A stretch of 64,000 bases of DNA from Podarcis pityusensis (lineage: Eukaryota), in assembly GCA_964106645.2 (NCBI GenBank), contig OZ067049.1; one strand, written 5' to 3'. The stretch's first letter is position 1. Each line of letters opens with the position of its first letter. The translations under genes and the position numbers were made by a program. Below are positions 13,379-57,297 of the stretch, one piece after another. Under the pieces are notes generated by a model. The model was not told the origin of the DNA. It made no database searches and worked only from the letters and a program-made list of their open reading frames with translations.

Positions 13379-16166
13379 CTGATGGGAACGGTTGGTGGAG
13401 CTTCTGCTTCGCTTGCAGAAGGTCCCAGGTTCAATCTTTGGCATTCTAGGTATGGATTTGAGAGACCCCTGTTTGCAACCCTGGAGACCCACTGATAATC
13501 AGCATAGTCAGGTCAACAGTCTGATTCAGCATAAGACATCTTCCTACCTTCTTCCACTGTTCCTCTAGGCTGCGTCTCATGTCTGCGTCATGCTCTGACT
13601 TAAGGTGGATCATGCTAACATTACCACTGCCATTTTCTTTTTGCTCTTGCTGTGAAGGGTTTTAAAAAAGGAAGGAAGGATCTAAAGGGGAAGAGAGATT
13701 GGATACATTAAATACCTAAAAGTAGCTTCTGTGTAATAGTTGAAGCTTAAAGGTGAGTCCTGGCTCTAAGAAGGTTGCATATTAAAGCAAAGAACTAGTA
13801 TTAGAGGCATACTGGACTGGAGGTAGTACATAATCATCATGGCTAATAGACACTTTTAAAACCATCTAGGTTGATGGGCATCACTACATGTTTTGGCAGA
13901 AAATCCTATAGTTTAACTTTGCACTGGGCGAAGTAGTGATTCCTTTTGTCTGCCTTGCATCTTCATTGGATGACTCCAGGCTTTAGCATTATGAGAAAGC
14001 CAATTTTGCCGATTTTGGTTTCCCCCCTTAAGATTTCTTTATACTACTACTATTCCCCGTAAGCACTATGATCATAGTGTTGTTGTGAGAAGGCTGAAAT
14101 GGGCACAAGGAGAAACCACTGCTTGGGACTCCTTGAAGACAGACATGCTTCATTTCTTGATGCTGAAATGCACAACACAGTGTGTGGCTTAACTAACTTT
14201 CTTGCGTTATCTGCTCTGCACATAGAACATTTTCCTGCTTTCCAGTTGCGGCACAGATTGTGTTGATCTGTGGTGTTACGTTTATCATGTGTAGATGGTA
14301 TTGATTGGTGCTGGGGAACTTGCAAGTACATACAATTGTTGGATGGGGTAGATAAAGAAAAATGTATGTGTAGGGGGGTGGTTTAGCTGTTGTGTAAGAC
14401 TTATTTTATTTCTATTGTGCACATAAAAAGCAGTTCTTCCTAACAGACTGTGCACTACACCCAGGAAAGACTGTTGACACTCATAGTTTGGAGTAAGTCC
14501 TGCCAGTTAGAGTCAGGTTCTTTTCATCACTGAAACATGGCCTGAATGTGCATATATACAAACAACTAAGCATATACAGATTTTATGCAAATTAGAACAA
14601 TGTGCCAGCTTGCCAGGTCTTTTTATGTACCTAGCAGCTGCCCAGACACTGACACTTACTTCTGAGTAAACATGCCTAGGATTGCACAGTAAATCTCCTG
14701 CGCCAGTGACCCAAGTTCTTTTTCATTGGTTCCTTCCTATAAACGCAGCTATGATGCCCTGACTTTAAAAGAAACCACAAAGCCTAATCATCATGTTATC
14801 TCCAGACTTAGTCTGCTCTTGGAACCCTTCCCTCTTGCCCCCTTTTTATTCTCCTCTTGTAATAGCTTCCACATGCTCATGCAAAAGCGTGGCACATTTT
14901 TAAAATCCTTGGCATAGAAATCAATTAAGCAAAGCGGCCGGGACTTCACAGCAGCGCTGCAGCAGGAGAAGCGATTTAGAAACGCGGCGATCTTACTTTG
15001 CAAATTGTGACCCGATCTTGAGCTCAAGCCCACCAAGGAGAGGAATGAACCAAAACACAAAGTAACACTTCGTGTGGAATGGAGATGATCATGGGGTTCT
15101 CTTTTGAGGAGAGCCCATGTCGAAAAGGAAGGTGTACGTCATCTTCAAAAATGGCAAATAATCATGTTCGTCTGTTTCTGTTGTTGTCCAGGAGGCAGAT
15201 CCAAAAGCAACAGTAGAGCCAATGAAAATGTCACAAAATAGTGAGCAAGCTTTTGAGTTACCTGTGGATGGATGCTACCCAAGTGAATGAATGGTGAGAT
15301 GAGAGAGAGAGAGAGAAAAGAAATGTTCCTGGGCCTTATGAAGATAGCCCTGGGCCACACCAACACCATATATTTAAAAGACACCTACACCACTTTAAAA
15401 GCCATGGCATTCCCCCCCCCCCCCCAAATCCTGGGATGCTTGGATTTGTAGCTCTGTGGGGGGCGGCGGTCCTACTCTCAGCACCATCAACAAACTACTG
15501 TTCCCAGAATTCTTTGGGTGAAGCCATGACTGTTCAAGTGGTGTGGATGTGACCTGCCTACGTTTGGTGAGATAGCCTGGTGCATAAGAGTACAAACTAA
15601 ACCTGTGATCCCATGCATACCTCCAAGACAGCAGAGGTAATATTCAGCTAAATCAGAGTGCATGGAAATGAATGAACATAAGTTAGGCCCGTTGACTTCA
15701 TTAGATCTAATCAGAGTAAAACTTAGCTGAATGCCACCTTAAGTCCCTGTACCAAGAGGGACTCTTCTGCTGATCTTAACACTGGAGAGGGTCTCCTCCA
15801 AACCTGAAGCTGAACTACCACCAGCTTCTTAAGCACCATTCCCCCCAAATGTATATTTGCCACTGACTGATAGTTATTTAACACTTCTGGGTTCTGGGAT
15901 GCCCTCCTAAGGAGTGGGAGCACCATCACTTCCTTCAAGTGGATGGTACCTTCCCCTTCTCCAGTGAAGCATCATTCCCTGGACCCACCCAGGCGAGCTT
16001 TTTTCCTTCTTCCTCCATTCCTCCAGCTTTGCCTGATGAAGAGTTCTGGATAACTTGAAAACTTGCTCATGCTTTTGTGACATTTTACTTGGCCTAATTA
16101 AGTTTTTTTTTTTTTTTTTTAAAGGATTACTTTTTATTATTTATTTATTTCTCCAGGTATAAATCA

Positions 16167-34286: not shown

Positions 34287-34412
34287 GTTCCAACGGCGAG
34301 CGTGACCATCGAAGGAGCTTCTGCCCTCAATCGTGTCCGTTGGGGCCAAGCTGGGAAAGAAGTGGCCGTTGGGGACTCCGAAGGAAGGATCTGGATCTAT
34401 GATGTTGGAGAG
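34287..34412 (+). CDS. DYNC1I1: DYNC1I1 penultimate coding exon (exon 16 equivalent)
   Basis: AG at 34285-86, GT at 34413. 126 bp encoding [42 protein letters not shown], in frame with the previous exon. Not shown in this frame in the ORF track. Confidence 0.97.
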
Positions 34413-47280: not shown

Positions 47281-47737
47281 CACTGTATATGTTGCTTAAT
47301 GCCAAACATAGCCTTCTAAGCCATTTGCAAAGTCACGCAACATTAAAATATCAACAACCATTATTAAAAGAGGCAACAGGAGAATCCCGTTAAAATGACG
47401 CCAATTAATATGGGAGATGAACGTTTTGTGCAAGCCAGTGGAATGCCAGTACAGATGAGGCCTTTCAGCAAGGAGACCCCACTCCATAACATTGGGGCTG
47501 CTACCAGTGTGGGGAGGGGGAGATAACGACTGCCTCTGTGTCACCTTAAGGCAGTAATCATGAGGCCACTGCAACCGGGTTCCATTTGTTATCTTAATTG
47601 GGTAGTGAAGCGAAAATTGGTATTTCTAACCTGATCCATAGTAATTTAGGGATTTTAATGTTAAGTTACAAGAGCTTAAAACTGGCTGGGTATGAAATGG
47701 GTGCTGCTTGTCTCCCAGGCCATGAAATTCTACATCA

Positions 47738-48147
47738 AACAAATGAAATACTGTGAAAATCCCTGAAACGAGAAGTAATTGACTAGAAATATTATCTTAT
47801 AGAATTTAAAAAAATAACCAAAATCAAAAAGTTTAAGGAAAAAATTTGAAAAATCTAGAACCTTACCCCCTTTCTTTGAATTTGGTCATTTAAGGTTTAT
47901 GATTTCTCTATTTCCTTCTGAGGAAACTGAATAGTTCAGTGAAACAAGGTTTGTAGCCGGCATCCCGTTAAGGCTTTGTTCAATTCTAGGTTTTTCTAAT
48001 TTTTTCCTTAAACTTTTTGATTTTGGTTATTTAGTTTAATTCTAGAAGATAATATTTCTAGTCAATTACTTCTCATTTCAGGGATTTTCACGGTATTTCA
48101 TTTGTTTTGTGTAATTTCTCAGTTCCGCGACTGTCTTTTTTCTACTG
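47738..48147 (+). mobile_element. Insertion with long inverted repeats and hammerhead-like core; probable Penelope-like element remnant
   Basis: 16-bp direct repeat ATGAAATTCTACATCA at 47722-37 and 48148-63. Inverted arms ~47737-47860 and ~47984-48107. CTGAGGA-A-ACTGAA-TAG-TTCAGT-GAAA at 47918-47944. The structure is seen directly; the family assignment is inferred. Confidence 0.65.
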
Positions 48148-49791
48148 ATGAAATTCTACATCAGCTGCATGCTCTGCAACAGCTATAAGGGAAACAACAC
48201 ATTGCATCTAAACATGAGGACAGGCATGCCCCAGTCCATTGAGTGATCTGCAGTATCTGTCTATAAGGAAGCGGGACGACATGTTGAACTGGTCCGTAGC
48301 CTAGGTGTGGATGTAGAGGAGCCTTCTAGCACAGCACCCTGGTTCATAAACAGATATTCTCCCGGGGCAATGGGGATCAGGAGGGAGAAGCTGTACTGAA
48401 TTTCCTAATATTGTACAACATCTTAATGTGGAAGAAGGAAAATGCACTTTTAAAAGTAATATAGCATCATTAACATTGTGTAGCATCTTAATAAGGAACC
48501 ATGAAATAGTGTATTTAAAATAACAAATTTAGCCAGGATGAGGAGGGAAGTAAACTTATTTCCCAAGAACATTTTCTTGTTTTTTTCTATATACACACAG
48601 TAAGATCAGCTTGACTAGGAAATTGTTACAGCTATTTCCCTGCGCTACAGGGAATTGAGTGAAAAAAATGTTCAGTGCCAATATGGGTTAAAGCGATATC
48701 ACATTAATGTAATGGTGTTCTTGTTTGTGAAATTCAGCTGAACAGGCATGCTCTCCTCCTTGCTAGTACCAGCATATGTTTTCTGGAGGAATATCTTCTA
48801 AAACAAGAATTCGTTTGTATAATTAATCATCTTTATGATTCTTCTGTGGTTTGAGCCTGTCACTTTCAATAGCAACCTTGGTTGTGAGGGAGGACTTAAT
48901 TATGGTGTTAAAATGCTTTTTCCTTAATGGTTGGTGAAGTTGTGTGTTGTATAAATGTATGGCGCAATGGAATGTATGTCTTGATAAGGAGCCGGTTAGC
49001 CTAAAATTGCAGCACATTACGGAAGAGTTCAGGACATTAATTTGCTCCGTAGAAAAGCGGAAACGACATATTTGAACTATAATTTTATGGTATTTGCAGG
49101 CGCTTTGGCTGTGATCCAGCAGACCGCAAGTACACAGGTTTGGTGGCTTTTAAAAAAGCAAAAGATCCATACATTCCTCATGCCAGCCAGGCAGTTCCTT
49201 GCCTTTCCGTAGCAGACAGCCAGAGCCTGTGACGCTTGCAACCTTTCGGAAAACAGCTCTTGAGAATTATTAATTTTCAGAGGCAGCCACCTGCTTTAAA
49301 AAATAAAAAAGAGGTACCTCGTGTTAGGCATTTATTTGTATGTCTTTTTGGAATTTGTATTCTACCCCGTAGGAAGTGTCTCAGGACAGCTTAAAATAAA
49401 TAATAATAAAATCAGTGTCAATATGAAAGGAAGCATACATTCATAACTAAATTGATACACAGAAGAGGTGTCACAGAAAGCAAGTTTACTAATTTCTCAC
49501 TGGAAGCATCCCAGATAAAAAATTTCAATTAATTTGTACCCCACCTCAAATCCCTCCAAATCAGTATCTCTTTAATTTATTCAATTTCAGTTAATTCTCC
49601 AACTGATCCTGTTCCACATCAATCCAGTTCTCTTCAGTTAACCACACTTATTACAGATCTTAAACATATGCGTTGCCCCAAATTAATATCCTACCAGGAA
49701 CCTGGGTCATCTCCCAGTTCAGTTTCCCCTTCTAGTCATTTCCCACCCAGAAGCACTTAGTGTAGTTCAAGATTTCTGGCTTGGCCCCCTT

Positions 49792-57186: not shown

Positions 57187-57297
57187 CTTGCTATACCGCA
57201 CAACGATGAGTGGACCCGATTTGCCCGGACTCTGGTGGAAATCCGTGCCAACAGAGCAGACAGCGAAGAAGAAGGAACCATGGAGATCTCTGCCTAG
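57187..57297 (+). CDS. DYNC1I1: DYNC1I1 last coding exon (exon 17 equivalent), including stop
   Basis: ttgcag acceptor at 57181-86. Encodes [36 protein letters not shown], then TAG at 57295-97, matching the DYNC1I1 C-terminus. Confidence 0.97.

What the first reader, a model, noticed from the sequence alone, without database searches (positions are those of the whole stretch)
47722..48163. TSD-flanked fold-back insertion carrying a hammerhead-ribozyme-like core in its loop
Seen: a perfect 16-bp direct repeat flanks 410 bp made of ~124-bp inverted arms (47737-47860, 47984-48107; about 90% or more identical, with reciprocal CpG-type differences), a ~123-bp spacer and a ~40-bp unpaired tail. The spacer has CCTT-CTGAGGA-A-ACTGAA-TAG-TTCAGT-GAAAC-AAG-GTTT: both hammerhead core boxes, a perfect 6-bp stem II, and a possible 2-bp stem III with a GUU triplet. 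A canonical stem I is not evident. The long TSD and asymmetric arms argue against a MITE. Known: Penelope-like elements have hammerhead-bearing pseudo-LTRs and often a 5' inverted partial copy. Inference: a PLE or retrozyme-like family unlike the other PLE remnants here. The core is in DYNC1I1 sense, so the pre-mRNA would contain a long dsRNA hairpin presenting a potential self-cleaving motif. This is the best candidate for something undescribed.
Basis: partly seen in the sequence, partly recalled or inferred. Interest (0 to 1): 0.7.

Follow-up and report, generated by a model that had tools for sequence, protein, structure and literature searches.

The report
Truncated Neptune-type Penelope insertion in intron
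This hairpin-shaped insert is one short leftover copy of a known kind of jumping gene (a Penelope-like retroelement) with a hundred or more copies in this genome; it was likely made by copying the element's RNA onto both cut ends of the DNA, and its ribozyme-like motif is damaged and predicted to be inactive, so it is most likely an ordinary passenger in the host gene's intron.

Summary
The structure is real: 16-bp TSD, ~124-bp inverted arms, hammerhead core. It is not a new element class. Bases 47863-48147 are the 3' end (pLTR plus tail) of a dispersed family with at least 127 exact 24-mer hits. Longer copies run into zinc-linker, GIY-YIG-like and RT coding DNA: a Neptune-type Penelope-like element (PLE). 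The left arm is the inverted, tailless partial pLTR described for PLEs. However, no covariation supports it, a rival hairpin is predicted to dominate, and this copy has a CpG change in stem III. Family counts favour priming from both target ends: 26 of 29 double-ended insertions carry the tail at exactly one end, none at both. TSDs of 10 bp or more occur in 24 of 36 inverted versus 12 of 58 direct-only copies. 5' ends pile up at an initiator-like site after a TATA box, not at the predicted cut. The insertion is shared by five related organism labels. This scan has reported the same architecture in many other genomes. Ordinary; low interest.

The parts
47722..47737 (+). Left copy of the 16-bp target-site duplication
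   Evidence: family TSDs are mostly 13-18 bp
47738..47860 (-). Inverted, tailless partial pLTR copy (matches 47984-48107); contains no hammerhead
47861..47862 (.). Head-to-head junction between the inverted and direct copies
   Evidence: junction present in a contig of related organism E
47863..48147 (+). 5'-truncated direct copy: last ~285 nt of the family's ~650-nt pLTR, including hammerhead motif and tail
47914..47973 (+). Type I hammerhead-like motif: stem I 47914-17/47970-73, CUGAGGA 47918-24, extra A 47925, stem II 47926-40 (A-U closing pair), GAAA 47941-44, long stem III 47944-50/47962-68 with palindromic hexamer 47956-61 in its loop, GUU 47967-69; predicted cut 47969/47970; G-to-A at 47946 breaks the third stem III pair
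47943..47980 (+). Predicted rival hairpin that sequesters stem III, GUU and the 3' strand of stem I
   Evidence: prediction only
48115..48147 (+). PLE tail (~33 nt between the two preferred 3' end points of the family)
   Evidence: 69 of 115 arms end at the distal site, 46 at the proximal site, none between; loose ends at 48113-16 and 48141-47 in sequencing contigs
48148..48163 (+). Right copy of the 16-bp target-site duplication; begins exactly at the family's tailed 3' end
34290..34412 (+). Host context: upstream dynein intermediate chain exon (approximate bounds)
57187..57288 (+). Host context: last coding exon of the dynein intermediate chain gene

Best explanation
The insert is a short, truncated copy of a Neptune-type Penelope-like retroelement, likely made when the element's RT-endonuclease cut both DNA strands 16 nt apart and likely copied the element's RNA from each cut end, and its hammerhead is predicted to be inactive at this site. 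Shown: family membership, link to RT and GIY-YIG-like coding DNA, TSD, two 3' end points about 33 nt apart, the one-tail pattern, and a 5'-end pile-up 31 nt after a TATA-like box. Inferred: the family RNA starts at that TATA/initiator site in the pLTR and is copied with its hammerhead uncut. One target end primed at the distal site and gave the 285-nt tailed direct copy. The other primed at the proximal site and gave the 123-nt tailless inverted copy. The two cDNA ends were joined head to head, and fill-in of the stagger gave the TSD. Since then the copy has decayed by about 5% and sits as a neutral passenger in the last intron of a dynein intermediate chain gene. Confidence in the PLE identity alone is about 0.97; the figure given is for identity plus double priming plus inactivity.
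For: Family: 89 matches from 40 scored of 227 candidates, nearly all to query 142-426; 59, 97 and 127 exact pattern hits, 0 for reversed controls. Coding link: longer copies encode a CxxCxxC linker and GIY-YIG-like domain and an RT fragment, 36-39% identical to an intact 749-aa sister ORF that has RVT_1 above and GIY-YIG just below Pfam cut-off. 3' ends bimodal, 69 tailed / 46 tailless / 0 between of 115 arms. Of 29 insertions with an inverted 3'-end arm, tail at one end 26, neither 3, both 0 (hand count; Fisher p = 1e-5); in 11 the tail is on the shorter arm. TSD of 10 bp or more: 24 of 36 with inverted left end versus 12 of 58 direct-only (p = 1e-5); 2 of 300 in mismatched-flank controls. 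Arms of one insertion differ by 7.3% versus 10.0% from other copies, 10 shared rare variants versus 1.7 expected, 14 insertions; both arms here carry a G at 48025 seen in 0 of 52 other copies. 15 of 115 5' ends at the initiator-like site, 1.4 expected; 85 of 115 arms span the predicted cut. PMC11167929 (main text read): an Anolis PLE protein cuts and extends both strands, starts RT at two internal sites that bound the tail, and uses uncleaved RNA.
Against: No intact ORF or pLTR-ORF-pLTR unit of this exact family was found, and no tree was built, so 'Neptune' rests on the zinc linker, which Nematis shares (PMC8557442). The TSD contrast is not significant in the second set alone (6 of 7 versus 7 of 16, p = 0.09), and left boundaries of direct-only copies are less certain, which lowers TSD detection there. 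For this copy alone (long arm tailed, short arm tailless) fold-back self-priming fits equally well. Arm similarity could also come from subfamily structure or conversion between arms; 2 of 14 insertions had arms less alike than the control. Most mapped copies were selected for holding the hammerhead region. No empty site was seen in 5 DNA runs, so the TSD is not confirmed against a pre-insertion allele. Inactivity is a prediction; PLE hammerheads can be protein-assisted (PMC11167929).
Confidence: 0.75

Rival explanations
1. Same element, but the inverted arm arose by fold-back self-priming: one cDNA (or an antisense template, as proposed in PMC3846280) snapped back and copied itself.
For: In this copy the short arm lies wholly inside the span of the long arm and shares a private variant with it. 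Arms of one insertion are more alike than random pairs. The model is in print (PMC3846280, Discussion read).
Against: In 11 of 29 double-ended insertions the short arm carries the tail that the long arm lacks, so it cannot be a copy of the long arm. Tailless inverted arms end at the same proximal site as tailless direct copies. Some insertions have abutting, non-overlapping arms as in L1-type twin priming (L109, L143, L152).
Confidence: 0.13
2. The hammerhead at this locus cleaves the host pre-mRNA (with protein help or as a dimer through the palindromic loop), or the long dsRNA stem is edited or diced, and the insertion has been kept for that effect.
For: Sense orientation in the last intron; complete descriptor match; very stable fold-back; right junction present in all five related organism labels laid.
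Against: Stem I and III pairing probability 0.00; target fold -1.9 versus -19.7 kcal/mol for the rival. Third stem III pair broken in this copy. Divergence from the family majority is 5.4%, the family mean being 5.6%, so no sign of constraint. Sharing among organisms about 2.5% apart in the flanks is expected for a neutral fixed insertion.
Confidence: 0.06
3. A non-autonomous retrozyme-like or fold-back unit that spreads as this 410-bp hairpin.
For: Short, hammerhead-bearing, TSD-flanked; a 2026 preprint (abstract, introduction and part of methods read) links animal retrozymes to PLE pLTRs.
Against: No second copy with this composite structure among 40 scored matches or 71 mapped insertions; inner junctions differ from insertion to insertion; no tandem arrays; 5' ends are graded up into the ORF.
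Confidence: 0.04
4. A MITE or other DNA transposon, or a twin-primed L1 fragment.
For: Inverted arms; 16-bp TSD is in the L1 range (recalled).
Against: Arms are unequal and vary between copies; no poly(A) end; family runs into PLE-type RT and GIY-YIG-like coding DNA.
Confidence: 0.01

Closest known systems
EN+ Penelope-like element insertion unit with inverted 5'-truncated pLTR and one-sided 30-40 bp tail (PMC8557442 Fig. 2 legend; Adineta vaga Pen2a, PMC3846280)
   Same: Head-to-head inverted partial copy, tail at one end only, TSD round the whole unit, hammerhead in the pLTR, heavy 5' truncation.
   Different: TSDs here are mostly 13-18 bp versus 8-10 bp reported for Adineta; this copy holds no ORF.
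Neptune clade of PLEs (zinc-finger-like linker between RT and EN; PMC8557442)
   Same: RT, CxxCxxC linker, C-terminal GIY-YIG-like domain in longer family copies; 36-39% identical to an intact sister ORF in this genome.
   Different: No full-length copy of this family recovered; clade not tested by phylogeny.
Poseidon of Anolis carolinensis, PAc (PMC11167929)
   Same: Two RT start sites bounding the tail; both strands cut and extended; hammerhead copied uncut.
   Different: Other clade; in PAc the ORF starts inside the hammerhead, which was not shown here.
PLE type I hammerheads (PMC4209133)
   Same: Core boxes, extra nucleotide between A9 and stem II, 6-bp stem II, short 4-bp stem I, palindrome in loop 3.
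   Different: Stem III is long (3+3 bp round a mismatch, 11-nt loop), more like the fungal/protist variants than the minimal metazoan form; A-U replaces the usual G10.1-C11.1; triplet is GUU.
L1 twin priming (recalled)
   Same: Second priming from the other target end gives an inverted segment within a TSD; some family copies have exactly this abutting layout.
   Different: Here arms often overlap, the second start is biased to the tail base, and there is no poly(A).

Membership tests
EN+ Penelope-like element | ORF with RT and C-terminal GIY-YIG endonuclease linked to the terminal repeat | tested here: met
   Longer copies (L030/L032, L037, L051) encode EN and RT pieces upstream of the same 3' end; E 1e-48, 6e-55, 1e-22 to the sister ORF with RVT_1 and sub-threshold GIY-YIG. 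Pfam alone did not call the fragments.
EN+ Penelope-like element | pLTR with hammerhead motif | tested here: met
EN+ Penelope-like element | Optional 30-40 bp tail | tested here: met
   69 tailed, 46 tailless, 0 intermediate of 115 arms
EN+ Penelope-like element | Inverted 5'-truncated copy at the 5' end | tested here: met
   23 of 71 and 6 of 23 mapped insertions
EN+ Penelope-like element | Tandem pLTR-ORF-pLTR full-length unit | tested here: inconclusive
   None found; 36 tailed right ends share no downstream sequence; searches score only the best candidates
Neptune clade | Zinc-finger-like CxxCxxC linker between RT and EN | tested here: met
   Intact in L037 and decayed in L032; shared with Nematis per PMC8557442
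Neptune clade | RT phylogenetic placement | not tested
   No named reference PLE proteins were in hand
Type I hammerhead ribozyme | CUGANGA and GAAA boxes round stem II | tested here: met
   47918-47944
Type I hammerhead ribozyme | Stem I of 4 bp or more and NUH triplet with A15.1-U16.1, C15.2-G16.2 | tested here: met
   chance closure 0.23%
Type I hammerhead ribozyme | G10.1-C11.1 closing pair | tested here: not met
   A-U in 98 of 100 aligned copies
Type I hammerhead ribozyme | Covariation in stems I-III | tested here: inconclusive
   No two-sided change between the two subfamilies (74 and 26 copies); one change restores a stem III pair, three break pairs. Copies are neutral decays, so power is low.
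Type I hammerhead ribozyme | Active fold favoured as a monomer | tested here: not met
   Stem I and III probabilities 0.00 in the window copy and in two undamaged copies
Type I hammerhead ribozyme | Match to an Rfam hammerhead model | tested here: not met
   No hammerhead hit at E up to 10 in the window region or in four loci including the sister family
Type I hammerhead ribozyme | Self-cleavage | not testable with these tools
   Indirect only: 2 of 115 5' ends within 2 nt of the predicted cut, 0.8-1.2 expected
Non-LTR retrozyme | Tandem units each with a type I hammerhead, no coding link | tested here: not met
MITE | Fixed symmetric terminal inverted repeats and uniform length across copies | tested here: not met

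The most novel reading that the evidence does not exclude
One RT-endonuclease complex primes both target ends in a coupled, asymmetric way (one at the tail tip, one at the tail base or further in), and this vertebrate Neptune family's hammerhead, with an unusually long stem III, a palindromic loop and a rival hairpin, is a locked switch or RNA-dimerisation module that keeps the template uncut until released. The family would then be a ready test system for how PLE inverted ends form.
Probability: 0.2. Interest if true: 0.45.

Novelty: new member of a known kind. Interest (0 to 1): 0.16.

Why it matters
The locus itself matters little: it is one decayed copy among a hundred or more. The family counts bear on an open point, how PLE inverted ends and the one-sided tail form. 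The one-tail pattern, the link between inversion and 13-18 bp TSDs, and tails on the shorter arm argue for priming from both target ends rather than the published self-priming idea, and agree with in vitro data on an Anolis PLE. I did not find twin or double priming proposed for PLEs in five literature searches (open-access library only), but this scan's own notes already propose it for other genomes.

Tried and rejected
Rfam scans found no hammerhead model hit, also not for the sister family's clear motif, so the blank says little. Pfam on the family's fragments gave only sub-threshold cysteine-rich hits. Walking upstream to a full-length copy ended in RT fragments interrupted by other repeats. 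The first subfamily-B TSD count was spoiled by an unrelated repeat at the start of my reference and was redone. My pair coordinates for the sister hammerhead were mis-indexed, so those sister probabilities are not used. Lower substitution in core and stems than in flanks (1.6-2.3% versus 3.7-5.0%, 48 copies) is not used as evidence: subfamily variants and BLAST selection inflate the contrast. The idea that inverted arms end at the ribozyme cut (7 of 23 inner ends lay 0-20 nt from it) failed on 115 arms picked by a motif 3' of the cut; that set is the first 100 of 127 listed hits plus earlier loci, and includes a few segmental duplicates. No RNA holder was listed; three runs guessed as RNA held family sequence but not this locus's flanks, which is no evidence either way. 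No empty-site joint appeared in 5 DNA runs. The TSD resembles the element sequence just past the tailless end in this copy, but no such pattern was evident by eye in 18 other junctions; not tested statistically. Lunse et al. (PMC5785218) is not held and was seen only as a reference entry. No supplements were read; alignments in those of PMC4209133 may already show long-stem-III vertebrate PLE hammerheads.

Full report
Observation. The whole insert is predicted to fold into a very stable hairpin (z = -23.7). Exons of a dynein intermediate chain gene lie on the + strand at about 22.8, 34.3 and 57.2 kb, and the gene's Dynein_IC2 domain lies upstream on the same strand, so the insert is in the last intron with the motif in sense. 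The paralogue name DYNC1I1 is recalled, not tested.

Family. A genome search matched almost only query 142-426, that is spacer, right arm and tail (40 of 227 candidates scored). Exact patterns gave 59, 97 and 127 hits, with 0 for reversed controls; these are lower bounds. Copies share a 3' end and are truncated at graded points 5'. The longest run into a reading frame with a CxxCxxC linker and a GIY-YIG-like domain, and further into an RT fragment. These pieces are 36-39% identical to an intact 749-aa frame of a very young sister family in the same genome, which has RVT_1 above and GIY-YIG just below the Pfam cut-off. Pfam did not call the fragments themselves. The linker marks Neptune or Nematis PLEs (PMC8557442, passages read). 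No full-length copy of this family was found and no tree was built.

Architecture is known. PMC8557442 (passages) states that PLE insertions often have an inverted 5'-truncated copy at the 5' end and a 30-40 bp tail often at one end only. PMC3846280 (passages and Discussion) shows such units with 8-10 bp TSDs and explains them by self-priming. PMC11167929 (first two of four parts read) shows a lizard PLE protein cutting and extending both strands, starting reverse transcription at two internal sites that bound the tail, and using uncleaved RNA.

What the copies say about mechanism. I mapped 71 insertions against a real long copy after dropping duplicate loci and mirrored second rows, and 23 more from a search seeded with the second subfamily. 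Among 115 arms picked by a 24-mer lying 3' of the hammerhead, 69 end at the distal site, 46 at the proximal site and none between; sequencing contigs show the same two end clusters. Of 29 insertions with an inverted 3'-end arm, 26 have the tail at exactly one end, 3 at neither and none at both (hand count; p = 1e-5; later showed one of the three, L153, to be tailed on its inverted arm). In 11 of these the tail is on the shorter arm, which a fold-back copy of the longer arm cannot supply. TSDs of 10 bp or more occur in 24 of 36 insertions with an inverted left end and 12 of 58 direct-only ones, against 2 of 300 in mismatched-flank controls; the second set alone is not significant (p = 0.09) and direct-only left boundaries are less sure. 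The two arms of one insertion are more alike than chance (7.3% versus 10.0% difference; 10 shared rare variants versus 1.7 expected; 14 insertions with enough overlap, 7 without), and both arms here share a G at 48025 absent from 52 other copies. This fits one source RNA or source locus, though subfamily structure or conversion could contribute. Fifteen of 115 5' ends fall in a 9-nt window at an initiator-like sequence 31 nt after a TATA-like box (1.4 expected), the likely RNA start. The simplest reading is priming from both target ends, with head-to-head joining. This step is inferred.

The hammerhead. A full type I motif can be drawn: stem I 47914-17 with 47970-73, core, an extra A, stem II, a long stem III with a palindromic hexamer in its loop, and GUU at 47967-69. 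It is the only full descriptor match in the window, and the closure is unlikely by chance (0.23%). The sister family has the same layout with a palindromic stem III. Short stem I, extra nucleotide and palindromic loop 3 match PLE hammerheads in PMC4209133 (results and discussion read); the long stem III and the A-U closing pair depart from the minimal metazoan form. Against activity: no Rfam hit; no two-sided change among 100 copies of two subfamilies, with three pair-breaking and one pair-restoring difference; a rival hairpin leaves stems I and III at probability 0.00 even in undamaged copies; and this copy has G-to-A at 47946, breaking the third stem III pair (46 of 100 copies pass my intactness test, this one does not). 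5' ends are not enriched at the predicted cut (2 of 115, 0.8-1.2 expected) and 85 of 115 arms span it, so templates appear to be copied uncut.

Age and host. This copy is 5.4% from the family majority, the mean being 5.6%. Contigs from five organism labels bridge the right junction, and one (organism E) spans the left flank, TSD, left arm and inner junction; left-flank contigs of organisms C, D and E differ from the window by about 2.5%. No empty site was seen. SINE-like inserts in sister copies resemble Sauria SINE (recalled), which suggests a squamate.

Earlier notes. One other palindromic PLE stump was noted in this genome, none for this sequence, and 167 findings in at least 24 genomes hold the same key words, several proposing double priming and a 5' boundary at the RNA start. 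I had reached double priming before reading them. They gave me the lead to test 5' ends: the RNA-start pile-up held, the cut-site pile-up did not.

Verdict. A real but ordinary 5'-truncated Neptune-type PLE insertion; new member of a known kind; interest 0.16.

Noticed in passing
window 16033-16060 (+): Second hammerhead-core-like string with a 5-bp stem II but no stem I/NUH closure by my descriptor; may be a decayed motif of another PLE or chance (0.1 expected per window).
   Followed up: partly
L118-L135, e.g. L119:667-3804: Very young sister Neptune-type family (about 99.4% identity between copies) with an open 749-aa frame and a clean type I hammerhead with palindromic stem III at about L119:3358-3403; several copies have inverted 5' pieces. 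A better substrate for biochemistry than the family studied.
   Followed up: partly
G000, e.g. C4:75470836-75475303, C5:5988494-5992446: A third PLE-like family with open frames up to 921-951 aa, often as inverted pairs of ORF-bearing copies.
   Followed up: no
L081, L138, L108, L096, L139, L047, L173, L211 (reference 1080-1125): Later insertions (about 350-bp SINE-like and MITE-like elements) recur in one AT-rich stretch of this family's pLTR.
   Followed up: partly
L039 and other long copies, about 85-120 nt after the ORF stop: TATA-like box with an initiator-like sequence 31 nt downstream; 15 of 115 family 5' ends pile up there.
   Followed up: yes
C19 loci L031-L034, L036 and L014/L017: Near-identical copies with shared flanks: segmental duplicates rather than separate insertions; L027/L028 on C9 likewise.
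   Followed up: partly
family pLTR upstream of the hammerhead (reference 640-870): Internal tandem repeat of about 110 bp at 70-80% identity, with copy-number differences between subfamilies.
   Followed up: no
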